Sequence record: JX128258
Length of the DNA stretch: 64,000 nucleotides
From: Escherichia phage ECML-117
Direction: 5' to 3' (one strand)
Every line of letters starts with the position of its first letter. Position 1 is the first letter of the stretch. The notes under the pieces are model-generated. The model did no database searches, was not told the origin of the DNA, and was given only the letters and a program-made list of their open reading frames with translations. This document shows, in pieces, positions 1 through 62,835 of the stretch. Made by a program: the position numbers and the translations under genes.

Positions 1-116
1 GCATGACGCTGACCAGACTTTAATTCAATGGGTAAGTTTTGATAAAACTAGCGGCGGAAAGTATCGCTACTATGGCGACGAGCGATTCACCACTAAATTT
101 TATAAGGTACTCGACC

Positions 117-464
117 ATGGCTCATGTTAAAGATGAAACGCTGTATGGCGCAGAGATCAAGAAGCGTGTGCGTGAGATGGCTGAAGGCGGAACATTGCTA
201 CCGCCGCGAGTCCGCTGCGACCACGTGATTGGCGTATCCGGCACGAAGGAGATGGGCGTGTTGGTGAAAGACATTCGCGTTGGGGATGTCATGGTCATCG
301 ACCGACAAGCGCGAGTCGTTATCCAGGTGCAACCGAACGATGATGAAGGATGTGTCCTATTGAAGCTGAAGAAACTTTCATCCAGCCCAGCAAAGGCAGT
401 CATCAAGAAGGTCTGGCCAGAAGGATTACGCAAACTCATTCGTCGACCCGTGGAGAATGTGTGA
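117..464 (+). CDS. hypothetical early protein (about 115 aa)
   Basis: Track ORF 39..464; in-frame ATG at 117 preceded by AAGG; stop overlaps next start (TGATG). Start uncertain. Confidence 0.4.
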   Translation: MAHVKDETLYGAEIKKRVREMAEGGTLLPPRVRCDHVIGVSGTKEMGVLVKDIRVGDVMVIDRQARVVIQVQPNDDEGCVLLKLKKLSSSPAKAVIKKVWPEGLRKLIRRPVENV

Positions 465-700
465 TGGAAGATTATATTAACGCCATGTATATGGCATTCT
501 ATGTCGTTCAACTTCCCAATGGCGCGGTATTTTATGGCGAGTACACCTTTGACGTTCAATATGGCGTTTCAGAGCGTACAGTGTTAACAAGGGAGTTGAT
601 TGCGGACCTTAAGGACGACATCAAGCGCGTCGCGCGGCAGCAGTTCAATTTGGATGACACAGTCATCGTTCGTATAACCGGAATAACAGAGGTGCAGTAA
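464..700 (+). CDS. hypothetical early protein (78 aa)
   Basis: In frame with track ORF 350..700; ATG at 464 overlaps upstream stop; its stop overlaps next start (TAATG), suggesting translational coupling. Confidence 0.45.
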   Translation: MEDYINAMYMAFYVVQLPNGAVFYGEYTFDVQYGVSERTVLTRELIADLKDDIKRVARQQFNLDDTVIVRITGITEVQ

Positions 701-1029
701 TGACCCGTGATCAGATACTCGCCGCGCATGAGCGTGAAAAGGTCAAAGATATTTGTAAAAGGCACAAATCATTTGCCGATTCTTACGCCTTCTTAAAGTC
801 CTGCATCAAGCAAAATGCAAGGATGGATAACACTGTATTGACATTCAACCTTTTGTCTAACGGAGCAAAGCTTGATGCAATATGCGGCTGCAGATTTGCC
901 AGCGTGATGTTTGAAAGATGTGCTCACAAAGACTCTTTCTTCCATCAAGTCTCTCACCGGACGGGTGATACAAAGATAACAAGGACAAGGCACGAGATAG
1001 AGATTGACCTACTCCACTATGTAAAATGA
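700..1029 (+). CDS. hypothetical early protein (109 aa)
   Basis: Track ORF; start overlaps previous stop; same strand as neighbours. Confidence 0.5.
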   Translation: MTRDQILAAHEREKVKDICKRHKSFADSYAFLKSCIKQNARMDNTVLTFNLLSNGAKLDAICGCRFASVMFERCAHKDSFFHQVSHRTGDTKITRTRHEIEIDLLHYVK

Positions 1030-1053
1030 ATATCAAAAAGGTGAGCTAAATGC

Positions 1054-1082
1054 TTGCCTTTTCTTTTATCAATACTTATACT
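1054..1082 (+). promoter_or_regulatory. sigma70-like promoter (TTGCCT-N17-TATACT) in repeated cassette
   Basis: Hexamers read directly; the same about 80-bp cassette (AAAAAGGTGAGCTAAATGCTTGCCTTTT...TATACT) recurs at 2566-2640; precedes gene at 1115. Confidence 0.45.
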
Positions 1083-1114
1083 CTTTTCATCAAGACTAAC
1101 AAGCAAGGTGAATT

Positions 1115-1432
1115 ATGATTTACTTAGGCATCGACCAGGAACAAGACGAGCGGCTAGGAAGCGTGTTAAACGTAGAATTAAACACAGCTGTACACATCAA
1201 GCCTTGGCCAGAGGCGCACCCCGACGTAGTTGTACCCGTTGCACCTTGGACTCGTTACGTTGCCATTGACAATGATGGCCTTGTCCATTGTTACTCAGAA
1301 AAGCCGACATACTTCGAAAAGTATCACCAATGGCTTATGACTGGTTGGGCAAAGGTGCGATGCTGCGGCGAAGTCGGTCTGGAAGGCTGGAGCTTCAAGG
1401 CTAGTGAATCGTGTGTCGAGGTGCAATTATGA
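1115..1432 (+). CDS. hypothetical protein (105 aa)
   Basis: Track ORF; AAGGTG 7 nt upstream of ATG. Confidence 0.55.
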   Translation: MIYLGIDQEQDERLGSVLNVELNTAVHIKPWPEAHPDVVVPVAPWTRYVAIDNDGLVHCYSEKPTYFEKYHQWLMTGWAKVRCCGEVGLEGWSFKASESCVEVQL

Positions 1433-1647
1433 ATGCCGCGCTGGGTAAGCTGTCTTTCAACAAGCGCAATGAGTTGCGCATGGTGTCTCGTTTTCAATTT
1501 TTATTAAATGCTATGTCAAGCGTTGCCATAGCAATGCTTCGCGCTGATTGCCCTGCTGAAAAGCGTGAGACTTTATTCAAGCGTCACCAACAATTACGAA
1601 ATGCTGCTTATAAACTGCAGCAATATGCTATGGAGTATGCAAAATGA
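1429..1647 (+). CDS. hypothetical protein (72 aa)
   Basis: In frame with track ORF 1411..1647; ATG at 1429 overlaps upstream stop (ATGA). Confidence 0.45.
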   Translation: MNAALGKLSFNKRNELRMVSRFQFLLNAMSSVAIAMLRADCPAEKRETLFKRHQQLRNAAYKLQQYAMEYAK

Positions 1648-1928
1648 AGATGCAAAGATGTCCACATTGCTTGTCCACGATGCGGCTTACTGCTGAAGAA
1701 TATTTACATCACGTTAACGTTTGTGAGGCTAATCCTGAAAATTCGACGCGTTACTATTATCACTATCACGCAGAAGCGGAAGATGGATCAGGCGCAACAG
1801 GAATCGTTACCACGAAAGAAATGGTGATCACCAAAAAGGCGTATGAAAGCCTGCTGGATACAATCAAGGAAGTGTCTGGCAAAGAAATAGTCTGCATTAA
1901 ATCTTTATCTTTCTTGCACGAGGTGTGA
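1644..1928 (+). CDS. small C2HC zinc-finger-like protein (94 aa)
   Basis: Track ORF; N-terminal RCPHC...H...C motif; paralogous to the next gene. Confidence 0.5.
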   Translation: MKMQRCPHCLSTMRLTAEEYLHHVNVCEANPENSTRYYYHYHAEAEDGSGATGIVTTKEMVITKKAYESLLDTIKEVSGKEIVCIKSLSFLHEV

Positions 1929-1929
1929 A

Positions 1930-2307
1930 ATGAGAATGAAGCGTTGTCCGTATTGCCACGATGTGATGCATCTTCCGCATGAAGAGTTCGTGCAGCACAT
2001 GACTAATTGTGATAAGAATCCTAAGAGTGAAAGCCAGCTTGAAGAAAGAATGTTTCTGGTGTCATTCAAGTATTCAGCTTACGATGCACAGCCTGCTTAC
2101 GGTGCACCAAGTGCTGTTTACAGACCATTGAGAAGCGACATTGACTCAATGCAGCTTGCGGCCTGGATTAACGTTAAGGAAGGCATCACTCCGCACTTTA
2201 TCGCGCGCATCCAATCTCAGATTCTACAAATCAAGCGCGAATACAACCGTGACATCACTGAAGTGAAGGTGCTTTCCATTACGCCGATGAATAAGGAGTT
2301 GCCGTGA
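1930..2307 (+). CDS. small C2HC zinc-finger-like protein, paralog (125 aa)
   Basis: Track ORF; N-terminus MRMKRCPYCHDVMHLPHEEFVQHMTNC parallels MKMQRCPHCLSTMRLTAEEYLHHVNVC of the previous gene. Confidence 0.5.
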   Translation: MRMKRCPYCHDVMHLPHEEFVQHMTNCDKNPKSESQLEERMFLVSFKYSAYDAQPAYGAPSAVYRPLRSDIDSMQLAAWINVKEGITPHFIARIQSQILQIKREYNRDITEVKVLSITPMNKELP

Positions 2308-2564
2308 ACAAGGGTCCGATGACTAAGTTGGCCGTTGCCGCGCGGAAGCTTCGACAAGCCGTTAATGGGTCGCGGCCCGTGGTGTTGACACTCGACGACG
2401 CAAAGGCGCTGGTAGAGCTACTCGACGAGCACAACCGACGAAAGAATCTGGAGAACACATTACGCTGGCGCGTCACCCCAGCCGGGCGGGAGAGCGAGAA
2501 GAAAGCTTACTTGCGACGCAAACTAATGTCAGTCGGCCTTCACGAAGAGGCGAAGAAGATTTGA
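2304..2564 (+). CDS. hypothetical protein (86 aa, GTG start)
   Basis: Track ORF; GTG start overlapping upstream stop. Confidence 0.4.
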   Translation: MNKGPMTKLAVAARKLRQAVNGSRPVVLTLDDAKALVELLDEHNRRKNLENTLRWRVTPAGRESEKKAYLRRKLMSVGLHEEAKKI

Positions 2565-2586
2565 TTCAAAAAGGTGAGCTAAATGC

Positions 2587-2614
2587 TTGCCTTTTTATTT
2601 GCCTGTATTATACT
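2587..2614 (+). promoter_or_regulatory. sigma70-like promoter (TTGCCT-N16-TATACT), second copy of cassette
   Basis: Near-identical to cassette at 1033-1082; precedes gene at 2643. Confidence 0.45.
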
Positions 2615-2642
2615 TGTTTCATCAAGCAAAGGAGAATTGATT

Positions 2643-2948
2643 ATGAGTACCGAAGCGATGAAGAAAAAGGTTTCGAATGCTTTGCAAGAAGCCGTGAACT
2701 GTGGTGCCATTAAAGAGTTCAAGGAGACTCAAGAAGGCGGTGAGCCAGTATTCTTCTTTAAGAATAAAAAGGACGGTGTTGCAGCAATCATGTTGTTAAA
2801 GAATAGTGATGACACATTTATCCTTTGCGTCGGAGGATATGACCTTATCGTTGATGATGTATTTATCAATTGTGCCGACGGTCTTAACCCTATGCTGACA
2901 TTTGAGCGTCGCACCATCCGTGTTGCAACGTTTGGAGGGAAGTTATGA
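2643..2948 (+). CDS. hypothetical protein (101 aa)
   Basis: In frame with track ORF 2583..2948; ATG at 2643 preceded by AAAGGAGA; N-terminal region similar to product of 3587..4099. Confidence 0.5.
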   Translation: MSTEAMKKKVSNALQEAVNCGAIKEFKETQEGGEPVFFFKNKKDGVAAIMLLKNSDDTFILCVGGYDLIVDDVFINCADGLNPMLTFERRTIRVATFGGKL

Positions 2949-3130
2949 GTACCGAAGTCCACAACGCATCAGCCTTGGTTAGCTTTTACCGTAACAAAGG
3001 CGTGTCGCTCGTTAAAACGCCGCAAGGGATGTTGTTCTTTGGCACGCGATTCCTGAAAGCATCGGAGCGTGAAACGCTGTCCAAGTTCGACCAGAAAACA
3101 TTGCACGCAGTTTGGAGAAGACAACAATGA
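2945..3130 (+). CDS. hypothetical protein (61 aa)
   Basis: Track ORF; start overlaps upstream stop. Confidence 0.4.
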   Translation: MSTEVHNASALVSFYRNKGVSLVKTPQGMLFFGTRFLKASERETLSKFDQKTLHAVWRRQQ

Positions 3131-3420
3131 GACTAAGCCTAGCGCAAATTCAAACATTGTACCGGATGGAAGACGGAACGCCATACATGCTGCGCGGCGA
3201 CCGCAAGAAGGCTTATGAAAAGCGGCCATCACTGTTTCACGACATCAATGCGCCATCAATCCCTGTCTTATTCCGGTTGGGCCTTGTTGATTGGGCGGCG
3301 CCAGGAGAGAAAGACCCGACGCGCTATTCATCCGTGGTGATGACAAAAGCAGGTCGCGCGGCATTAAAAGAGATTAAAGAAAATATGGCTGGAGGTAAAT
3401 ATTATGACATCAAATCTTAA
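3127..3420 (+). CDS. hypothetical protein (97 aa)
   Basis: In frame with track ORF 3112..3420; ATG at 3127 overlaps upstream stop. Confidence 0.4.
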   Translation: MRLSLAQIQTLYRMEDGTPYMLRGDRKKAYEKRPSLFHDINAPSIPVLFRLGLVDWAAPGEKDPTRYSSVVMTKAGRAALKEIKENMAGGKYYDIKS

Positions 3421-3568
3421 AGCCCGTTTATTATTCATCAAGCCGCATGTGCCATATAAGATTAGTAAGCGCACCTGGCTTAACATTTACAACCGCAGCG
3501 GCGACCGTTGTTTGTACAAGGCAAAGCGGCGCAAGAAGGTATATTCTTACACAACATCCATCAAATAA
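3404..3568 (+). CDS. small basic protein (54 aa), not in ORF track
   Basis: ATG at 3404 with GGAGGT 7 nt upstream; translation MTSNLKARLLFIKPHVPYKISKRTWLNIYNRSGDRCLYKAKRRKKVYSYTTSIK; below the track size cut-off. Confidence 0.4.
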   Translation: MTSNLKARLLFIKPHVPYKISKRTWLNIYNRSGDRCLYKAKRRKKVYSYTTSIK

Positions 3569-3586
3569 GACTAGGAGAAGAATAAA

Positions 3587-4099
3587 ATGAAAATCGAACA
3601 ACTCGAAGCAGTATTGGAAATGGCCGTAAAGGCAGGCGCAATCAAAAGCTATCGTCGCGAGAAGTCAGATAGCGATAAGGTGTTTTGTCGCAACTTCTAT
3701 ATCGTTGGCAACCTTAACGACCACTACACCATCGAGTGGTATACTAACGTGATGACCCTTAAGTCGCGCACCATGGAGCTTTGGTGTGATGACATCTGTC
3801 TTTCGAATACTCACCCAAGCTATGATGTCGCCCTGGCATTCTATCACGGAAGCCGTCAACCTGTCGCCCACATCGGTGAGAAGCATGAGCATCTTAAGGC
3901 ACGACCAGAGGAATCAATGGAAGGTTGGATTGAATGGGCTGGCGGAAAGAATCCGGTGCCTGGTAAGATGGTCGAATACAGGCTGCGCAATGAAGGGGAT
4001 AAAGTGCTGTCAAGACTCTCTGACCATCTGCACTGGGCCCATATAGGAGGACTAAAAGGTAGTGACATCATTGCTTATCGGGTCGTTAAGGAGGGATGA
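3587..4099 (+). CDS. hypothetical protein (170 aa)
   Basis: Track ORF; AGGAGAAG upstream; N-terminus resembles product of 2643..2948 (AVKAGAIKSY vs AVNCGAIKEF). Confidence 0.55.
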   Translation: MKIEQLEAVLEMAVKAGAIKSYRREKSDSDKVFCRNFYIVGNLNDHYTIEWYTNVMTLKSRTMELWCDDICLSNTHPSYDVALAFYHGSRQPVAHIGEKHEHLKARPEESMEGWIEWAGGKNPVPGKMVEYRLRNEGDKVLSRLSDHLHWAHIGGLKGSDIIAYRVVKEG

Positions 4100-4590: not shown

Positions 4591-4874
4591 CCCGTGGGGT
4601 GTGAGTCTTTATTATCGGATAAAGCGATTGATTTGTGTAAATCTATTAGAGGATGGTGGGGAATGAGGATTGTGACGTGATTTGTGTGTCTTGAATATGT
4701 GTGCGGATTTGGAAGAATATTGTACTGTGGTGCTGTGGGATTGGAGAGGGAATCACTAGGTTTTGGGGCGTGTACCGTGGTGTGTGGGCCTGTAGGCTGC
4801 GCCGTCTCTGGGATTGCCGCCTGAAATTTAAAAGGAGATATAGTTAGCTGGCTAACCTTACGTATAGAATTTAA

Positions 4875-5162
4875 GCGTATAATGACGTAAGATTTGGACC
4901 TATCCGTAGTTCACTCCACACACTTCTATGGTGCGCCGCGACTGGGTTCAGTGGTACATCTTACGGATGATACGGATGATACGCGTCGCCGCTATACTTT
5001 ATACAACTTTGAAAAAAACAATTAACTCCATTTTGAATTAATTTAAATTAATTTTTTTCTACATCCTCATACTTATACTAAACTTATGTTTATACGTATT
5101 ATCCGTAAGATATAAGTAAAAACAAAGACTTGCGGCAATACGGATGATACGTCATGATACGC
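4875..5162. promoter_or_regulatory. iteron/AT-rich control element, copy A
   Basis: GCGTATAATGACGTA at 4875-4889; tandem 9-mers in CTTACGGATGATACGGATGATACGCGTCGCCGC at 4960-4992; AT-rich tract 4993-5100; inverted ATCCGTAAG at 5101; ACGGATGATACG at 5140-5151. Homologous to copy B at 20906-21180. Confidence 0.5.
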
Positions 5163-5389
5163 TTCAACCAGCCAGCAGCGGCTAAGTCATTGATTTGCAT
5201 AACAAGCGGCGAAAGGGATGGATTTCTTTTATACGTATCAAACAGTACACCACGCACCACGGTCCGCTATTCATTCAGCACTATGATTTGTGTACTTTTA
5301 CAGCCAATTTGAACATCAATCTGCACTTGAATATAATGTTCATTCATTGTATAATTCACACTATTAATTTGCACTATGGGATTTGCACT

Positions 5390-5863
5390 ATGAGTCAAGA
5401 TTATGTAGCAATGCCTGAAGACTTTGAAGACCCGCGATTTGCAGAGCATAATCAGGCATTATTCGATGAGTTCATTGACCTTGTTATTCAGGGCCATGAC
5501 ATGCGCGCAGCTTTTGCACTAGTATTTGGCATGGAGGTTGCGACCGATAACTACACTGGCCAGCGAATCCTCTGCACGCAACGCAATCCGTACTACAAGA
5601 TGCGCTACAAAAAGCGTATGGAAGAGATGCCATTGAAGGAATTGTGGAGTGTAAAGAGTTCCATCCACAATTTAGTGAAGCTTGTGCGTGATCCAGAAGT
5701 CGCAGCATCAGCCAAGCTTAATGCCATTCGTGAACTGAATATCATCTACGGCATCACGATGATTGATGAGAATGGCAATAGTAAAATGGGCCGTTCCATG
5801 GACGATTTCTACAAGGATTTTGGAGAGGCAGCCAAAGAGGGTGAGCAATTCTCCCGCCACTAG
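5390..5863 (+). CDS. hypothetical protein (157 aa)
   Basis: In frame with track ORF 5195..5863; ATG at 5390 after two TATAAT-like boxes; the start codon overlaps a copy of the ATTTGCACTAT motif. Confidence 0.5.
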   Translation: MSQDYVAMPEDFEDPRFAEHNQALFDEFIDLVIQGHDMRAAFALVFGMEVATDNYTGQRILCTQRNPYYKMRYKKRMEEMPLKELWSVKSSIHNLVKLVRDPEVAASAKLNAIRELNIIYGITMIDENGNSKMGRSMDDFYKDFGEAAKEGEQFSRH

Positions 5864-5882
5864 CCAATTTGCACTATAAAAC

Positions 5883-5916
5883 GGCCCTAGAACACATTTT
5901 CTCCACTTCTAGGGCC
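5883..5916. other. perfect 10-bp stem-loop (GGCCCTAGAA-N14-TTCTAGGGCC)
   Basis: Read directly; lies 20 nt after the stop at 5863; no clear T-tract on the plus strand. Confidence 0.5.
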
Positions 5917-6261
5917 ATCGGTAATACGACGGGGAAGGTTACAACCATAAACGCTTTAGAAAGTGTATTATTATAAGTCATCTTTTAGTCACTTTACGTA
6001 ACAATTTACGACCTTCCGCCGTCCAGTCGAACGACTCCACCAGCAGATTTGCACTATAACCTAAGACGATGCGCCCTTTCTCGTTATCGACCCGCCAACA
6101 AGTCTCGAATAGCATTCGATTTGCACTATTAACTATCGCCGCAACGCGCGTTGGGTAAGCGCAATTTGCACTATGGTCGTAAAGGGATAAGGTGCGACCA
6201 CTTCCGATGGACAACGTAGCGATGAGAATAAGCGTATTCATAAGCCACCAATTTGCACTAT

Positions 6262-6284
6262 GAAAAGCGACCCCGAAGGGCCGC
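6262..6284 (-). terminator. putative rho-independent terminator for minus-strand gene 6292..6918
   Basis: Minus-strand GCGGCCC-ttcg-GGGTCGC hairpin (one mismatch) followed by TTTT. Confidence 0.4.
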
Positions 6285-6291
6285 CATTCGA

Positions 6292-6918
6292 TTAGATAAT
6301 CTGGAATGTGTAGGACTTGTTGCCGAACTCAAAGGTCAAGCGTCCAGCTTCTTTAAGCTTCATGCGGAAGCGAATGTGCTTGCTATCCGGTAATCCCAGC
6401 GCGGCGAACGCTACGCGGACCGATTTGAACTCGCCTACACCTTCGACCATGACGCCGTTACGGGTGAGACGCTTTTGCGCCACTTCCTTGTTATCCCAAC
6501 TTTTTGCAATACCTTCGCTATTCGAACGGCGATGGGAAGGACTGGCAATTTTATCCGCGCCAACCGGAGCATCATTCAGGCCGCTTTTAACGAAGGCTTC
6601 ATATTCTTCGTCGGTCATCGCGTCGAGTTCTTCCTGGGTCGGCTCCGCTTTTTTAACGACCGCACGCGCTTTGTGCGTTTTTACATCGCTGGACACTTCC
6701 TCGCGCGGCTTCGCGTCTGGGATGGGCGATTCGTTGGACGGCTCATCGAGCGCGTTTAAGGACTCGATTAACGCGATGACGCGAGTCTCAGCGGTGCGAC
6801 GGTCCGCAAACTTCTTAATCGGTTTTGAGCCGGAGTTAGCGTTATAGAATGCAACGAGGTCGGCGGTCTTAGTTGCGATAACGTCGCCGCTAGTAGAGAA
6901 ACGATTCAAGCTAACCAT
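6292..6918 (-). CDS. hypothetical protein (208 aa) with acidic central linker
   Basis: Track ORF; AGGAG upstream on minus strand; antisense plus-strand ORFs are Ser-rich and low-complexity; CpG-rich composition. Confidence 0.6.
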   Translation of the reverse strand: MVSLNRFSTSGDVIATKTADLVAFYNANSGSKPIKKFADRRTAETRVIALIESLNALDEPSNESPIPDAKPREEVSSDVKTHKARAVVKKAEPTQEELDAMTDEEYEAFVKSGLNDAPVGADKIASPSHRRSNSEGIAKSWDNKEVAQKRLTRNGVMVEGVGEFKSVRVAFAALGLPDSKHIRFRMKLKEAGRLTFEFGNKSYTFQII

Positions 6919-6987
6919 AATAAACTCCTAGTTTGGGAGCGGCGTTAACGACCTATTCGCTAACTCATCCCGTCCCGATATGAGTAC

Positions 6988-7015
6988 ATTATAATATAGT
7001 GTAGAAAAAAGTAAA
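6988..7015 (-). promoter_or_regulatory. sigma70-like promoter (TTTACT-N16-TATAAT) for 6292..6918
   Basis: Minus-strand read GTGCTTTACT...TATAATGTACTCATATCGGGACGGGATGAGTTAGCGAATAGGTCG is homologous to the plus-strand module upstream of 7554. Confidence 0.45.
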
Positions 7016-7059
7016 GCACTTTTTCGATAAAAATGCGATAAATTATTTTATCTTTTTTC

Positions 7060-7087
7060 TTTACTTCTTCGTACACTCGCGTATACT
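7060..7087 (+). promoter_or_regulatory. sigma70-like promoter (TTTACT-N16-TATACT) for 7144..7446
   Basis: CTTTACTTCTTCGTACACT shared with promoter at 7458; followed by TGTTTATATCGAGACGGG leader. Confidence 0.45.
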
Positions 7088-7143
7088 TGTTTATATCGAG
7101 ACGGGCGATGGCCCTTCCTTCTACTAGCATCGGGAGCTTTATT

Positions 7144-7446
7144 ATGACTACTTTAATCTCTTCCATCCTTACTTACGACGAAGACCGTTTAACCGTTCGC
7201 TCTCTTATCGCCGCCGTTAACGCGGAACTAGAATCTAGCGCCATTAAGGTCCGCGCGGTCGCCTTCATCGGCCTTTCCTTCGACGATATGAAGTACGCCG
7301 AACGTAGCGCCATCCGCTTCGCGAAGACCGACGACGAAGCCGTTACCCTTATCGAGACGGTTACGCCGCGCGGCGAAGCGTTAATTATCGTCGAGTATAT
7401 CGACGTAGAAGGCGATAAATCTTATAAACATTTTATCGCAGAATGA
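7144..7446 (+). CDS. small acidic protein (100 aa)
   Basis: In frame with track ORF 7087..7446; ATG at 7144 after GGGAG; codon usage rich in CpG, almost no CTG/CAG. Confidence 0.55.
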   Translation: MTTLISSILTYDEDRLTVRSLIAAVNAELESSAIKVRAVAFIGLSFDDMKYAERSAIRFAKTDDEAVTLIETVTPRGEALIIVEYIDVEGDKSYKHFIAE

Positions 7447-7457
7447 CGAAAAAGTGC

Positions 7458-7486
7458 TTTACTTCTTCGTACACTAAGACTATAAT
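7458..7486 (+). promoter_or_regulatory. sigma70-like promoter (TTTACT-N17-TATAAT) for 7554..7844
   Basis: Hexamers read directly; duplicated module of 7060-7087. Confidence 0.5.
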
Positions 7487-7508
7487 GTTTTATATCGAGA
7501 GGGGATGA

Positions 7509-7529
7509 GGTAGCGAATAGGTCGCTACC
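7509..7529 (+). other. leader stem-loop (GGTAGCGA-atagg-TCGCTACC) in 5' UTR
   Basis: 8-bp perfect stem between promoter and RBS; a related imperfect copy lies in the minus-strand leader of 6292..6918. Confidence 0.45.
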
Positions 7530-7553
7530 CTCCCGACTAACTAGGAGAATATT

Positions 7554-7844
7554 ATGATTACTTTAGCCGCTATCCGTTCCGCTCGCGTCGAAACTTCCGA
7601 AAACTCTAACGTATTTGGCGAAACCTTAGAGAGCGTTTATCTCTCTAACGTAGACGCAACTATCGAGTCTATTTATGAGCCGATCAACTTTCTCGACCTT
7701 TACAAGTATCGCGACGAGGACATCGTATCCTACCGCGTAACGATTAACGGCTTCGTTTATACGATCACCGAAATCGGCGGCGAATATATAGCTGTACCGC
7801 AACTCGGCGGCGAAGTAACTTACTTTAAAATCGTAAGCCTTTAA
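7554..7844 (+). CDS. small acidic protein (96 aa)
   Basis: Track ORF; AGGAGAA upstream; same unusual codon usage as 7144..7446; similar size and N-terminus (MITLAAI vs MTTLISSI). Confidence 0.6.
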   Translation: MITLAAIRSARVETSENSNVFGETLESVYLSNVDATIESIYEPINFLDLYKYRDEDIVSYRVTINGFVYTITEIGGEYIAVPQLGGEVTYFKIVSL

Positions 7845-7855
7845 GGAGAAGAAAG

Positions 7856-8065
7856 ATGACTAATATGAATAACTCTCTTAACGCGCGCGCCCATCGCACC
7901 GCCGTAATCGATATGTTTCGCGAGCTTAAGGAATTATGCGATAATATGAACGCGATGTTATCCATCGGCGGCTGGGGATACGAAGAAGAAGTTAAATACG
8001 CGGTTATGCGTCGCCGTCGCGATAACGTCCTTGGACAAATTAAACGCGCCGGATTATTCCTTTAA
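7856..8065 (+). CDS. hypothetical protein (69 aa)
   Basis: Track ORF; AAGGAGAAGAAAG upstream; same codon usage; followed by terminator. Confidence 0.55.
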   Translation: MTNMNNSLNARAHRTAVIDMFRELKELCDNMNAMLSIGGWGYEEEVKYAVMRRRRDNVLGQIKRAGLFL

Positions 8066-8091
8066 TTATAATCACCCACCGTTACTAATAG

Positions 8092-8116
8092 GCCGCGCTT
8101 AGTCGCGGCTTTTCTT
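8092..8116 (+). terminator. rho-independent terminator (GCCGCG-cttagt-CGCGGC + TTTTCTT)
   Basis: Read directly after the stop at 8065. Confidence 0.6.
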
Positions 8117-8586
8117 CGTCCCTATCTCAATGCGCTTCTCCGCGAAAATTCCTTTATCCTTCCCTTCGTCGTCGCATAATCTTCGTCGAGATGCTCCTTA
8201 GTTCGCATAACGGGTATTACGTTAAATGGAGAACATCGCGTAAGTCCTTGTTTTATATAGACACCTATATCGGACCGTTAAGGCGGGTCGCGTAAGTCGT
8301 TGTTTTATAAAGGCGCAAAACTTTCCCTTCGTTCCGAACTAAAACGAGAAATATGCGGACCCTTCGCCCGAAAATAGTACGCATGCGAAATTACCGACAT
8401 CTAGAATAATCCCCGCCGATATTATCCTACACGCAATCATTAGCCTTCGAATCATTATGCTTCATATTATTATGCATCGAATCATTCGCTTTCGAATTGT
8501 AACGCTGGAAACTGTAACGGCGATTGATTATTGCGTTCGTGTGGTTTTTATGGCATGGGTCTTTTGGTGCGTTTTGGTACTTGATG

Positions 8587-8709
8587 AAATTTGCAGTACA
8601 CTAATCAAAATACGACACATTTGGTCCACTAACTTTTCAAAGAAAAAGTCCTAGACAGTACCGTACTATTTTGTGCCCACAGTAAATTTGCAGTACACTC
8701 CTGCGCGGC
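8587..8709 (+). repeat. two copies of 16-bp motif AAATTTGCAGTACACT
   Basis: Exact copies at 8587-8602 and 8694-8709; shares the ATTTGCA core with the 11-bp array at 5367-6261. Confidence 0.7.
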
Positions 8710-18944: not shown

Positions 18945-19796
18945 ATGGCTTTTAAAGCTTCGAAAAAACGTGAACGCCGCTCACCCGATAGAATTGGGCG
19001 CGGCAGTCCGATAATCCCATCAAACGCTATTGCGATGGCCTACCGTCGTGAGATGAAAGGTCTTTGCTATGCGATGATTGATGACTATCAGGCAGGAATT
19101 TCAGAGTGGCTTGAAAAGAAGCAGGTGCAGAAGTTCTTTGCGCAAGACTCTGCTGATTCAACATTCCAAACTCTTATGAAACGTCTGCAGCTGAAATGGG
19201 CAAAGGCGTTTGCTCGTGTTGGGTCGAAGATTGCCGCTGATTTTATCAAATCGGTTGAAAAGGGTGCTACTTCTGCTACATTCGCCAGCCTTAAGTCCGC
19301 AGGCATAGAAGCGCCAAAGGCCACATATAACAAATTCGTTGAGAACACTCTTAGAACAAGCGAGACGTTTAACACGACTCTAGTGACTAAGGTCGGCGAG
19401 GATATTCACAACAGAGTGTACGAAGCAGTCATGCTTTCGCTGACTTCGCCCGACCCAGCCCAGCAAGGCACGTCAGGCATTCAGGCGGCGTTGCGAAACG
19501 TAAAACACTTCTCTGCAAAGAGAGTCGACTTAATCGCTAAAGACCAGACAAGCAAATTGTATTGCGTTCTAAGCGATGAAAGGATGCGCCAGAATGGAGT
19601 CGAAGAATTTGAGTGGGCGCACTCAGGAGCAGGAAAGGAGCCGCGAATCTCTCATGAACACGTCGACGGAATGAGATTCAAACTTGATGACAAGCGCCTA
19701 TGGGAAGTTGGCGGCGAATTGAAGTTCAAAAAGGGTGACATCGGTCCTCCTGGATGGGCAATACACTGCAAGTGCAGAAAAATACCAATCATTTGA
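18945..19796 (+). CDS. head morphogenesis protein (minor capsid, Mu F/SPP1 gp7-like)
   Basis: In frame with track ORF 18882..19796; position immediately after portal; basic N-terminus. Confidence 0.5.
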   Translation: MAFKASKKRERRSPDRIGRGSPIIPSNAIAMAYRREMKGLCYAMIDDYQAGISEWLEKKQVQKFFAQDSADSTFQTLMKRLQLKWAKAFARVGSKIAADFIKSVEKGATSATFASLKSAGIEAPKATYNKFVENTLRTSETFNTTLVTKVGEDIHNRVYEAVMLSLTSPDPAQQGTSGIQAALRNVKHFSAKRVDLIAKDQTSKLYCVLSDERMRQNGVEEFEWAHSGAGKEPRISHEHVDGMRFKLDDKRLWEVGGELKFKKGDIGPPGWAIHCKCRKIPII

Positions 19797-62161: not shown

Positions 62162-62425
62162 ATGGGCGCTTTCCGCAACGAGTTTATTTGGAACGTCACA
62201 AGCAGTCTTTCGACTTGTCCTAACTGTGCGAGCGATGTGATCAAGGTGCGGCAGCATCGCAGTGCAGAGGAAGGTGCCTGGGAGGACGGCGACCTTGTAG
62301 AGTGCCAGTGCTGCTCTCACGAAGGCGTGGTGGAGCTTTACGCAGGAGAAGGTTGTCCACCAGCAGAACGTTCAGCACGCGTTGAATGGGATGCGACAGA
62401 CTCCATCGGTGATCCTCAACAGTAA
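62162..62425 (+). CDS. small zinc-ribbon protein (87 aa)
   Basis: In frame with track ORF 62111..62425; ATG at 62162; CPNC...CQCC Cys pairs. Confidence 0.45.
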   Translation: MGAFRNEFIWNVTSSLSTCPNCASDVIKVRQHRSAEEGAWEDGDLVECQCCSHEGVVELYAGEGCPPAERSARVEWDATDSIGDPQQ

Positions 62426-62544
62426 ATTTAGGTATAGATACATATGAAAGCCGTAAAGAAATACACATTAATCATTTCCCTTGTTATCATCCTGGGGCTA
62501 TTATATGTATTGGATATGGCATATTATTTGGCAGGGGTGAGTAA

Positions 62545-62835
62545 ATGAATATTGTAATTCTTTATGGTGAGAATATCAGCGATGACGACATCGAAGTTGC
62601 CGTTGATGTTTACGGTATCGATGAGGTGAAACGTGTTGAAGAAATTAATGGCTCAAATCTTAATGAGATTGCCAAAGAAGCTGGTTGCCCTTCGGAAGAG
62701 ATTTTGGTGGTTACTAACGATGACCTGTCTTCTATGGATTGTTTGCGCCGCATCTTCACCGATTGCCAATACCTTCATTCTGTTCAGTCAGTAAACAAAT
62801 TGAGAAAGGCATACGCTGACCAATTTCCTTGCTGA
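62545..62835 (+). CDS. hypothetical protein (96 aa)
   Basis: Track ORF; GGGGTGAG upstream. Confidence 0.45.
   Translation: MNIVILYGENISDDDIEVAVDVYGIDEVKRVEEINGSNLNEIAKEAGCPSEEILVVTNDDLSSMDCLRRIFTDCQYLHSVQSVNKLRKAYADQFPC

What the first reader, a model, noticed from the sequence alone, without database searches (positions are those of the whole stretch)
7144..8065. Operon of three small, mostly acidic proteins with no recognisable motifs: candidate anti-defence or host-takeover genes
The products of 7144..7446 and 7554..7844 are about 100 aa, strongly acidic and apparently paralogous; 7856..8065 encodes a 69-aa helical protein. Small acidic proteins in phage accessory islands are frequently DNA mimics or inhibitors of host defence such as restriction or CRISPR. 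Here this is only an inference from size, charge and context.
Basis: inference. Interest (0 to 1): 0.6.

Follow-up and report, generated by a model that had tools for sequence, protein, structure and literature searches.

The report
Early genes in phage terminal repeat
Three small genes of unknown function sit in the first DNA that an E. coli Wifcevirus phage injects, behind strong host-type promoters, which makes them good but unproven candidates for host takeover or for this phage group's unexplained resistance to restriction enzymes.

Summary
The three ORFs are real genes under purifying selection, but the description needs correcting. A (7144-7446) and B (7554-7844) are only moderately acidic. 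C (7856-8065) is basic. A and B are not detectably paralogous. The unit has an internal promoter.

The window is a Wifcevirus, an E. coli myovirus of about 68 kb. The genes lie inside its roughly 3.5-kb direct terminal repeat. A repeated sigma-70-like promoter/leader cassette occurs three times there and drives A, B-C and the divergent 208-aa gene.

A and B are in all 27 Wifcevirus records and have no known domain, PHROG family or fold match. A has two remote metagenomic homologues. C is in only 7 records and is shared with more than 310 Klebsiella Weberviruses (phrog_10377, labelled 'transcriptional regulator' with no support I could find).

Published data show that Wifceviruses resist every tested restriction system except EcoP1_I. 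I find that the terminal repeat has no cleavable EcoRI, EcoRV, EcoAI or CACAG (EcoCFT_II) sites but has head-to-head EcoP1I sites. Phage T5 follows the same rule. This suggests that an early function encoded in the repeat protects the rest of the genome. A and B are two of about four candidates. No direct functional evidence exists.

The parts
5030..8600 (.). Direct terminal repeat (DTR) of the Wifcevirus genome, collapsed to one copy in this window. The right end lies at about 8540-8645, depending on the reference record.
   Evidence: Base 1 of the PhageTerm-defined DTR of phage Mansfield (1-3673) maps to window 5030. The two identical 3784-bp terminal copies of phage WFC map to 5030 to about 8645. 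Records of 72 kb carry the region twice.
6912..7026 (-). Promoter/leader cassette copy 1. It has -35 TTTACT, a 16-nt spacer, -10 TATAAT (7015-6988), a leader hairpin and an SD. It drives the 208-aa gene.
   Evidence: (I1, I2, I6). It is conserved in 9 of 10 related loci.
6292..6918 (-). Divergent early gene encoding a 208-aa basic protein (pI 9.0, phrog_4730, unknown function). It is a co-candidate for the function encoded in the repeat.
   Evidence: dN/dS is 0.08. Its orthologue vB_Eco4M-7_19 was detected by mass spectrometry (PMC7048862).
7059..7143 (+). Promoter/leader cassette copy 2 (P_A). It has -35 TTTACT at 7060-7065, -10 TATACT at 7082-7087 and a short leader without the hairpin.
   Evidence: (D9, D10).
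7144..7446 (+). Gene A, encoding a 100-aa acidic protein (pI 4.65). It is core to the genus and has no known family.
   Evidence: It is present in 27 of 27 Wifcevirus records and none elsewhere by tblastn. An exhaustive HMMER search found two remote homologues, P0039 and P0040. dN/dS is 0.24. The AF2 model has pLDDT 65 and no fold match.
7447..7553 (+). Promoter/leader cassette copy 3 (P_B). It has -35 at 7458-7463, -10 TATAAT at 7481-7486, a leader hairpin at 7498-7538 and an SD.
   Evidence: The hairpin folds at -21.3 kcal/mol with z = -2.9, and shows a compensatory G-C to U-A change relative to copy 1.
7554..7844 (+). Gene B, encoding a 96-aa acidic protein (pI 4.23). It is core to the genus and occurs as two allele types about 65% identical.
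   Evidence: It is full-length in 26 of the 27 Wifcevirus records; the 27th shows only a 23-residue fragment, and it is found nowhere else. dN/dS is 0.36. A weak paralogue exists in other Wifceviruses (Mansfield_005/F13_0024; E = 2e-6). The AF2 model has pLDDT 58 and no fold match.
7856..8065 (+). Gene C, encoding a 69-aa basic protein that I read as mostly helical from its sequence (no structure was predicted). It is an accessory gene shared with Klebsiella Weberviruses.
   Evidence: It matches phrog_10377 at E = 1.6e-37. It is present in only 7 Wifcevirus records, but more than 310 Webervirus records hold homologues at 40-46% identity (alignment A4). Profile searches of Pfam, NCBIfam and PDB found nothing.
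8090..8121 (+). Intrinsic terminator that closes the A/B/C unit.
   Evidence: It has an 8-bp stem with 6 G-C pairs followed by a T-rich tail. Phage Mansfield, which lacks C, has an annotated terminator directly after B.

Best explanation
A, B and C are immediate-early genes of a Wifcevirus and lie inside its direct terminal repeat (DTR) of about 3.5 kb. Whichever genome end enters the cell first, they are within the first few kilobases of injected DNA.

The host sigma-70 RNA polymerase reads them from two copies of a repeated promoter/leader cassette: P_A drives A, and P_B drives B-C up to the terminator. A third copy drives the divergent 208-aa gene.

The products are small soluble proteins that are not part of the virion. 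Most likely they act within the first minutes of infection by binding host proteins, for host takeover or counter-defence. This is the same logic as the pre-early module in the T5 terminal repeat and the host-takeover module in the SPO1 terminal redundancy.

The module as a whole probably encodes the unexplained restriction evasion of this genus. DNA entering after the DTR would be protected once the DTR genes are expressed, so only restriction systems with cleavable sites inside the DTR can restrict the phage. A and B are two of about four candidate effectors, along with the 208-aa and 87-aa genes. C is a horizontally mobile accessory gene and is not needed for that phenotype.

Shown here: gene reality, location in the DTR, promoter and terminator anatomy, distribution, and restriction-site geometry. 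Inferred: early timing, binding of host targets, and which gene protects against restriction.
For: - DTR location.
- Three conserved copies of a sigma-70-like promoter/leader cassette, found only in the DTR (4 matches against 0.02 expected by chance).
- Purifying but relaxed selection compared with neighbours.
- A and B are in every Wifcevirus record.
- Absence from virions: the orthologues gp20-22 were not detected in published vB_Eco4M-7 particle mass spectrometry, while 33 other proteins were (PMC7048862).
- Cassette-like evolution:
  - The histories of A and B disagree. The window's A is 100% identical to that of WFC and Bas98, but its B is only 65% identical.
  - Phage F13 carries a partial tandem copy of A plus a fourth cassette.
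  - The slot between the 208-aa gene and A varies and sometimes holds a B paralogue.
  - C is present or absent depending on the phage.
- An A homologue, P0039, lies in a long array of small genes in an unrelated 141-kb E. coli phage contig.
[quoted passage not shown] EOP is about 1 on EcoCFT_I, EcoRI, EcoRV and EcoCFT_II, and below 1e-13 on EcoP1_I, with 18-19 EcoRI and about 93 EcoCFT_II sites per genome.
- Site geometry: in the window, Bas98 and Bas99 the DTR holds 0 EcoRI, 0 EcoRV, 0 EcoAI and 0-1 CACAG sites (never head-to-head), but 5-6 AGACC sites in both orientations.
- The DTR coincides with the longest CACAG-free interval of the window, 4733-8678.
- Precedent: T5 and BF23 are restricted only through sites in their terminal repeat (PMC10644984). 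The SPO1 host-takeover module occupies its terminal redundancy (PMC10531801).
Against: - No expression data or functional test exists for any of these genes.
- No homology or fold match ties A, B or C to any characterised takeover or anti-defence protein. The AF2 models are low-confidence (pLDDT 65 and 58).
- The restriction-site argument is circumstantial:
  - It rests on five restriction systems and three closely related genomes.
  - The EcoCFT_II motif (CACAG) was inferred by matching site counts.
  - With the DTR's own composition only about 2.2 CACAG sites are expected, giving P(0) = 0.11.
  - The rarer sites are expected less than once in 3.5 kb anyway.
- The published T5/BF23 precedent is itself imperfect for type III systems. 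Tequintaviruses resist EcoPI although most carry head-to-head AGACC pairs in their terminal-repeat region.
- Two-step injection or delayed entry has not been shown for this genus.
- The phage's DNA ligase and polynucleotide kinase, or an unrecognised DNA modification, could account for the resistance.
- The basic 208-aa protein is at least as good a candidate as A or B for shielding DNA.
Confidence: 0.55

Rival explanations
1. A and/or B are classical DNA-mimic anti-restriction proteins of the Ocr or ArdA type. They would occupy the DNA-binding groove of type I restriction or BREX enzymes.
For: - They are acidic, small and among the first DNA to enter, behind strong promoters, like T7 gene 0.3.
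- The genus resists restriction.
Against: - Net charge is only -0.07 to -0.08 per residue. Two other proteins in the window are more acidic.
- The predicted folds are mixed alpha/beta with a hydrophobic beta-meander.
- Mimics of type I enzymes do not explain the resistance to EcoRI and EcoRV seen in BASEL.
Confidence: 0.1
2. The genes serve the phage's own programme rather than attacking the host. C would be a small transcription or translation regulator, for example of the early-to-middle switch. A and B would be needed for completing DNA entry or starting replication, like T5 A1/A2.
For: - C belongs to phrog_10377, labelled 'transcriptional regulator'.
- The early leaders carry a conserved hairpin that could be a regulator's target.
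- T5 pre-early genes A1 and A2 control second-step DNA transfer (abstract of bioRxiv 10.1101/866236, listed).
- A and B are strictly conserved in the genus.
Against: - Pfam, NCBIfam and a PDB profile search detect no DNA-binding domain in C.
- C is missing from 20 of 27 Wifceviruses, so it cannot be an essential switch.
- A and B evolve 3-8 times faster in dN/dS than neighbouring genes, and B has alleles only 65% identical. That is more typical of host-interaction genes.
Confidence: 0.2
3. The genes are dispensable, moron-like passengers of a mobile promoter cassette, with little or no contribution to infection under most conditions.
For: - They behave as cassettes: presence or absence of C, partial duplication of A in F13, a variable neighbouring slot, and recombination between A and B.
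- Their distribution is ORFan-like.
Against: - dN/dS is below 0.4 for all three.
- A and B are retained in all 27 sequenced members. A-like genes are kept in the same gene order in a more distant contig (P0040).
Confidence: 0.1
4. The genes encode structural or housekeeping phage proteins.
For: None was found. The neighbouring terminase small subunit gene also lies in the DTR.
Against: - There is no homology to any structural or replication family.
- They were not detected in particle mass spectrometry.
- The fold searches found no structural-protein match above noise.
Confidence: 0.03

Closest known systems
Pre-early (first-step-transfer) module in the terminal repeats of phage T5 and BF23
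   Same: - The genes lie in a long direct terminal repeat and are read by host sigma-70 RNA polymerase.
- They are mostly small proteins of unknown function.
- The phage resists type I and II restriction unless recognition sites lie in the repeat (PMC10644984). The window, Bas98 and Bas99 show the same geometry.
   Different: - The DTR is about 3.5 kb with roughly 5-7 genes, against about 10 kb and more than 15 genes.
- There is no sequence homology.
- Two-step injection is not known for Wifceviruses.
- A terminase small subunit gene also sits in this DTR.
- Tequintaviruses resist EcoPI although most carry head-to-head sites in their repeat, whereas Wifceviruses are highly sensitive to it.
SPO1 host-takeover module (24 genes in the 13-kb terminal redundancy, including the acidic DNA mimics Gp44 and Gp46)
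   Same: It is a terminal-redundancy location with arrays of small ORFan genes. Several SPO1 products are acidic inhibitors of host RNA polymerase or HU (PMC10531801; PMC8208478 and PMC8892312, abstracts listed).
   Different: - The host is Gram-positive and the phage family is unrelated.
- There is no homology.
- The module here is far smaller.
- No toxicity or target data exist for A, B or C.
T7 gene 0.3 (Ocr) and ArdA DNA mimics
   Same: Small acidic proteins made first from the leading DNA end by host polymerase.
   Different: - The charge density of A and B is much lower.
- There is no sequence or fold similarity.
- Ocr does not protect against type II enzymes.
PeSL mobile regulatory cassettes of T4-type phages (early promoter plus stem-loop flanking small ORFan genes; Arbiol et al. 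2010, cited from my own knowledge)
   Same: - A repeated unit of early promoter plus stem-loop precedes small ORFan genes.
- There are signs of recombination and duplication at the repeats.
   Different: - There are only 3-4 copies, and they are confined to the DTR.
- Sequence relatedness to T4 PeSLs was not tested.
- The hairpin here lies downstream of the promoter, in the 5' leader.
phrog_10377, small 'transcriptional regulator' of Klebsiella Weberviruses (applies to C only)
   Same: Full-length match with 40-46% identity, the same length, and a location in an array of small genes.
   Different: I found no support for the family's functional label: no Pfam or NCBIfam domain and no PDB relative.

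Membership tests
Ocr/ArdA-type DNA-mimic anti-restriction proteins | Very high negative charge density imitating the DNA backbone (from my knowledge, roughly -0.15 net charge per residue or stronger, pI about 4 or below) | tested here: not met
   A has -0.07 per residue and pI 4.65. B has -0.083 per residue and pI 4.23.
Ocr/ArdA-type DNA-mimic anti-restriction proteins | Sequence or fold homology to a known mimic family | tested here: not met
Ocr/ArdA-type DNA-mimic anti-restriction proteins | Inhibits type I restriction in vivo or in vitro | not testable with these tools
   This needs an experiment.
Terminal-repeat pre-early / host-takeover modules (T5 FST, SPO1 HTM) | Genes lie inside the direct terminal repeat | tested here: met
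   The Mansfield PhageTerm DTR and the duplicated WFC ends map to window 5030 to about 8600.
Terminal-repeat pre-early / host-takeover modules (T5 FST, SPO1 HTM) | Promoters of the host sigma-70 type in front of the genes | tested here: met
   TTTACT-16/17-TATAAT (or TATACT), matching 9-10 of 12 consensus positions. The motif is repeated three times and conserved across the genus. This is an in silico result only.
Terminal-repeat pre-early / host-takeover modules (T5 FST, SPO1 HTM) | Expression within the first minutes of infection | not testable with these tools
   I found no transcriptome for any Wifcevirus.
Terminal-repeat pre-early / host-takeover modules (T5 FST, SPO1 HTM) | The phage is restricted only through sites located in the repeat | tested here: inconclusive
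   The pattern is consistent for all five systems with published EOPs. The statistical support is modest, and one recognition motif was inferred.
phrog_10377 (C only) | Significant full-length profile match | tested here: met
   E = 1.6e-37 over residues 1-69 of a 70-position profile.
Transcriptional regulators (C only) | A recognisable DNA-binding domain | tested here: not met
   No Pfam, NCBIfam or PDB profile hit reached significance.
   Only the order of predicted secondary-structure elements is similar.
PeSL-like mobile promoter cassettes | A repeated unit of early promoter plus stem-loop flanking ORFan genes, with recombination at the repeats | tested here: met
   for the repeat and hairpin. 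for mosaicism and duplication. Homology to T4 PeSLs was not tested.

The most novel reading that the evidence does not exclude
A and/or B is the effector of a broad restriction-evasion mechanism of the T5 type. Made from the first-entering terminal repeat, it would render all later-entering phage DNA insensitive to type I, II and III enzymes. Because this repeat holds only about four candidate genes, it could finally identify a mechanism that has stayed elusive in T5 for decades.
Probability: 0.2. Interest if true: 0.8.

Novelty: new member of a known kind. Interest (0 to 1): 0.5.

Why it matters
Wifceviruses are candidates for therapy and biocontrol against E. coli O157. They have an extremely short infection cycle and a published, unexplained resistance to restriction.

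Placing A, B and C in a compact early module in the terminal repeat narrows the search for the responsible gene to about four ORFs. So does the finding that the one effective restriction system is the only one with cleavable sites in that repeat.

The model gives sharp predictions. Adding sites to the repeat should sensitise the phage, and removing the EcoP1I sites should make it resistant. A genome-synthesis platform already exists for a member of this genus (PMC11074155), so these tests are feasible.

If confirmed, the system would be a much smaller model than T5 for protection of the genome against restriction after entry.

Tried and rejected
- **A-B paralogy.** BLASTP, shuffled Smith-Waterman and three hhalign runs were all negative.
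- **MucBP relationship for A.** The exhaustive search listed two MucBP repeat proteins (E = 2e-5 and 1e-4). The match is an 11-residue beta-hairpin motif, inflated by 4-7 repeats. hhalign gives a probability of 4.9%. Rejected.
- **Family libraries.** Pfam, NCBIfam and PADLOC gave nothing for A, B or C. PHROGs gave nothing for A or B.
- **Solved structures.** Sequence and profile searches of the PDB gave nothing significant.
- **Word-indexed homologue search.** It found only Wifcevirus copies and missed the Webervirus homologues of C at about 45% identity. It is therefore not evidence of absence.
- **Viral-contig scan with B.** Only Wifceviruses.
- **Literature.** Searching for the protein accession numbers found no papers. 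The synthetic-phage paper does not mention terminal repeats or these genes.
- **RNA genes.** Rfam and tRNA scans of the DTR found nothing.
- **Upstream TTG start for A at 7087.** Rejected, because it lies inside the -10 hexamer of P_A.
Full report
**What the window is**

The region 6900-8300 is 93-98% identical to 27 GenBank phage records, all Wifcevirus. These are E. coli and Shigella myoviruses of about 68 kb, or 71-72 kb when both terminal repeats are written out. In the records that include both ends, the region occurs twice.

Phage Mansfield carries a PhageTerm-defined direct terminal repeat (DTR) at 1-3673, and its base 1 maps to window 5030. The two identical 3784-bp ends of phage WFC map to 5030 to about 8645.

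The finding therefore lies inside the DTR, roughly window 5030-8600. It is not in a generic accessory island.

**Checking the observation**

- The three ORFs exist as described, with good ribosome-binding sites.
- Across 5-10 related phages, dN/dS is 0.24 for A, 0.36 for B and 0.14 for C. They are real coding genes, but less constrained than their neighbours at 0.04-0.08.
- A has pI 4.65 and net charge -7. B has pI 4.23 and net charge -8. C has pI 9.5 and net charge +3.
- B is the 2nd-3rd most acidic of 92 putative products, and A is within the top tenth. A charge density of -0.07 to -0.08 per residue is moderate.
- A and B are not detectably related:
  - BLASTP gives no alignment.
  - Smith-Waterman scores lie below the shuffle mean.
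  - Three profile-profile comparisons give probabilities of 0.1-0.8%.
- The low-confidence AF2 models (pLDDT 65 and 58) do show the same order of elements: an N-terminal helix, a short strand, a helix, then a four-stranded meander. Ungapped agreement is 61%, against a 33% mean for circular shifts. A shared fold cannot be excluded, but it is not shown.

**Anatomy of the unit**

A cassette of about 110 nt occurs three times, and only here in the 64 kb: 4 matches to its core against 0.02 expected by chance, the fourth being a weak three-mismatch hit outside the DTR at 19416.

The cassette consists of:
- an A-rich upstream stretch;
- -35 TTTACT, a 16-17 nt spacer and -10 TATAAT or TATACT;
- a conserved initial transcribed sequence, TTTATATCGAGAGGGG;
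- a leader and an AGGAG ribosome-binding site.

The three copies are arranged as follows:
- Copy 1 is on the minus strand (7026-6912) and drives a 208-aa basic protein gene (6292-6918).
- Copy 2 (7059-7143) drives A.
- Copy 3 (7447-7553) sits between A and B and drives B and C.

Supporting calls are 10, 11 and 56.

No terminator follows A. One good terminator follows C, at 8090-8111. The unit is therefore an operon with a strong internal promoter.

Copies 1 and 3 carry a leader hairpin, at 7498-7538 in copy 3. It folds at -21.3 kcal/mol with z = -2.9, and has a compensatory G-C to U-A change between copies.

All three copies were found in 9 of the 10 related loci examined; vB_Eco4M-7 matched only the two plus-strand copies, and phage F13 has a fourth.

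**Distribution and relatives**

*A and B*
- Every one of the 27 Wifcevirus records matches both A and B. One record (ECP_WGS_SA1) matches B over only 23 residues. No other phage record matches at E <= 1.
- The word-indexed search of 5.8 billion proteins found only Wifcevirus-size contigs.
- An exhaustive HMMER profile search of 1.84 billion representatives with the A alignment found two genuine remote homologues:
  - P0039 is 99 aa, E = 2e-12.
  - It lies in a long same-strand array of small genes on a 141-kb contig. Part of that contig is 80-90% identical to E. coli phages of about 140-150 kb, including Phapecoctavirus records.
  - It hits A reciprocally.
  - P0040 is 108 aa, E = 4e-7.
  - It lies on a 3.7-kb contig whose gene order mirrors the Wifcevirus DTR.
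- The same search listed two MucBP repeat proteins. That match is an 11-residue motif inflated by repeats, and I reject it.
- B has a weak but real paralogue, Mansfield_005/F13_0024. It is 94 aa and highly acidic by inspection of its sequence (charge not computed), with BLASTP E = 2e-6 and a full-length alignment. It occupies a variable slot between the 208-aa gene and A in some Wifceviruses, but not in this window.

*C*
- C is present in only 7 Wifcevirus records.
- It has full-length homologues at 40-46% identity in more than 310 Klebsiella Webervirus (Drexlerviridae) records, in their array of small genes.
- It matches phrog_10377, 'transcriptional regulator', at E = 1.6e-37.
- I found no domain or solved-structure support for that label.

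*Mosaicism*
- The window's A is 100% identical to that of WFC, Bas98 and Bas99.
- Its B is 65% identical to WFC and Bas98, but 98% identical to Bas99.
- This implies recombination between A and B, where the repeated cassette sits.
- F13 has a truncated tandem copy of A (residues 36-100, 89% identity) with an extra cassette.

**Function: what the searches could not say**

- Pfam, NCBIfam, PADLOC and PDB sequence or profile searches gave nothing for any of the three proteins, and PHROGs gave nothing for A or B.
- Foldseek against BFVD was run for A only and gave nothing at E <= 1e-3.
- No homology to structural or housekeeping proteins appeared.
- In published mass spectrometry of vB_Eco4M-7 particle preparations, the orthologues gp20, gp21 and gp22 were not among the 33 proteins detected. 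The neighbouring 208-aa protein (gp19) was detected (PMC7048862; locus-tag mapping).

**Function: what the context says**

Published phenotypes:
[quoted passage not shown] The exception is EcoP1_I, and the authors note this is puzzling because EcoCFT_II has a similar number of sites (PMC11990801).
- Their tables give 18-19 EcoRI sites, about 93 EcoCFT_II sites and 82-89 EcoP1_I sites per genome.
- EOP is about 1 on EcoCFT_I, EcoRI, EcoRV and EcoCFT_II, but below 1e-13 on EcoP1_I.

Inferring the EcoCFT_II site:
- I reproduced the published site counts for Bas98 and Bas99.
- CACAG is the only 5-mer whose count equals the published 93 (Bas98) and 92 (Bas99).

Site positions in the window, Bas98 and Bas99:
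- The DTR contains no EcoRI, EcoRV or EcoAI/EcoCFT_I site.
- It contains 0, 1 and 0 CACAG sites respectively, never in the head-to-head arrangement that type III enzymes need.
- It contains 5-6 AGACC sites in both orientations.

Statistics:
- The DTR coincides with the longest CACAG-free interval of the window, 4733-8678.
- Only 0.7-1.6% of same-length sliding windows have as few CACAG sites.
- A first-order model of the DTR's own composition expects only 2.2 sites, with P(0) = 0.11.

Parallel with T5:
- This is the rule described for T5 and BF23. Those phages resist type I and II restriction unless sites lie in the first-entering terminal repeat, and the authors take this to mean that a pre-early product protects the rest of the genome (PMC10644984).
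- The parallel is imperfect for type III. Tequintaviruses also resist EcoPI despite head-to-head sites in their repeat, whereas Wifceviruses are extremely sensitive to it.
- In T5 the responsible gene is still unknown.
- SPO1 likewise places its host-takeover module of small genes, several of them acidic inhibitors, in its terminal redundancy (PMC10531801).

**Best explanation**

A, B and C are immediate-early genes of a compact pre-early module in the terminal repeat. Host RNA polymerase reads them from repeated strong promoters. They most likely encode small binders of host proteins, for takeover or counter-defence.

The module probably contains the restriction-evasion function of the genus. 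A and B are two of about four candidates, together with the 208-aa and 87-aa genes.

C cannot be required for that phenotype. Bas98 and Bas99 carry no gene between B and the next downstream gene, and only seven Wifcevirus records match C at all. Yet all four BASEL isolates resist restriction.

The specific 'DNA mimic' idea is weak. The charge is moderate, there is no homology, and type I mimics do not explain resistance to type II enzymes. The basic 208-aa protein is at least as plausible for shielding DNA.

Alternatives that remain open are an unrecognised DNA modification, or repair by the phage's ligase and polynucleotide kinase.

**Novelty and verdict**

These genes are already annotated as hypothetical in all related records, so the ORFs themselves are not new.

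New here:
- their placement in a terminal-repeat early cassette array;
- the two remote A homologues and the B paralogue;
- the link of C to Weberviruses;
- the restriction-site geometry that accounts for the published EcoP1_I versus EcoCFT_II puzzle.

I classify the finding as a new member of a known kind, namely a terminal-repeat pre-early or host-takeover module. Interest is 0.5.

Noticed in passing
window 5367-6261 (+ strand): There are seven exact copies of ATTTGCACTAT, all on the same strand and all inside the DTR. They flank and overlap the terminase small subunit gene (5390-5863), and none occurs elsewhere in the 64 kb (1.8 expected at one mismatch or fewer). They may be a packaging or terminase-binding array, or a phage-specific promoter element.
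   Followed up: partly
window 4733-8678: This is the longest CACAG-free interval of the window, and it coincides with the DTR. CACAG is the inferred EcoCFT_II site. EcoP1I sites (AGACC) occur there at the normal density and in both orientations. This matches the published sensitivity pattern of BASEL Wifceviruses.
   Followed up: yes
window 4955-5151, around the left DTR boundary at 5030: An inverted repeat (4955-4977 and 5092-5114, 87% complementary) and three copies of ATACGGATGATACG (4961, 4970, 5138) bracket the position where the terminal repeat begins. They are possible signals for terminase recognition or end formation.
   Followed up: no
window 8236-8312 and 8587-8699: The gene-poor right part of the DTR holds two 25-nt direct repeats (TCGCGTAAGTC-TTGTTTTATA-AG). 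Two exact 16-nt repeats (AAATTTGCAGTACACT) straddle the right DTR boundary.
   Followed up: no
window 6292-6918 (- strand): This 208-aa basic protein (pI 9.0, phrog_4730, unknown function) is driven by the same early cassette. Its orthologue was detected by mass spectrometry in vB_Eco4M-7 particle preparations. It is at least as good a candidate as A or B for a DNA-protecting early or injected protein.
   Followed up: partly
L009 (phage F13) 2914-3313; L001 (Mansfield) 1971-2255; L011 (Bas98) 2062-2587: The cassette array varies between Wifceviruses. F13 has a truncated tandem copy of A plus a fourth promoter cassette. Mansfield, F13 and Bas99 carry an extra minus-strand gene that is a paralogue of B. 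Bas98 carries an unrelated 104-aa gene in that slot.
   Followed up: partly
L017 8001-8300 (141-kb metagenomic contig): A remote homologue of A (P0039, about 39% identical) sits in a long array of roughly 25 small same-strand genes. The contig is from a phage partly related to E. coli phages of about 150 kb (Phapecoctavirus-like). This shows exchange of the A family between unrelated E. coli phages.
   Followed up: partly
window 62162-62835 (+ strand): Two small proteins (87 and 96 aa, net -10 and -11, pI about 4.2-4.3) are more acidic than A or B. They lie in the long array of small genes upstream of the DTR. If charge is the criterion, they are better DNA-mimic candidates.
   Followed up: no
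window 7498-7538 and 6935-6975 (- strand): A conserved leader hairpin (GGUAGCGA-AUAGG-UCGCUACC) lies in two of the three early 5' UTRs, with a compensatory base-pair change between copies. It could be an mRNA stabiliser, a processing site or a regulator's target. It has no Rfam match.
   Followed up: partly
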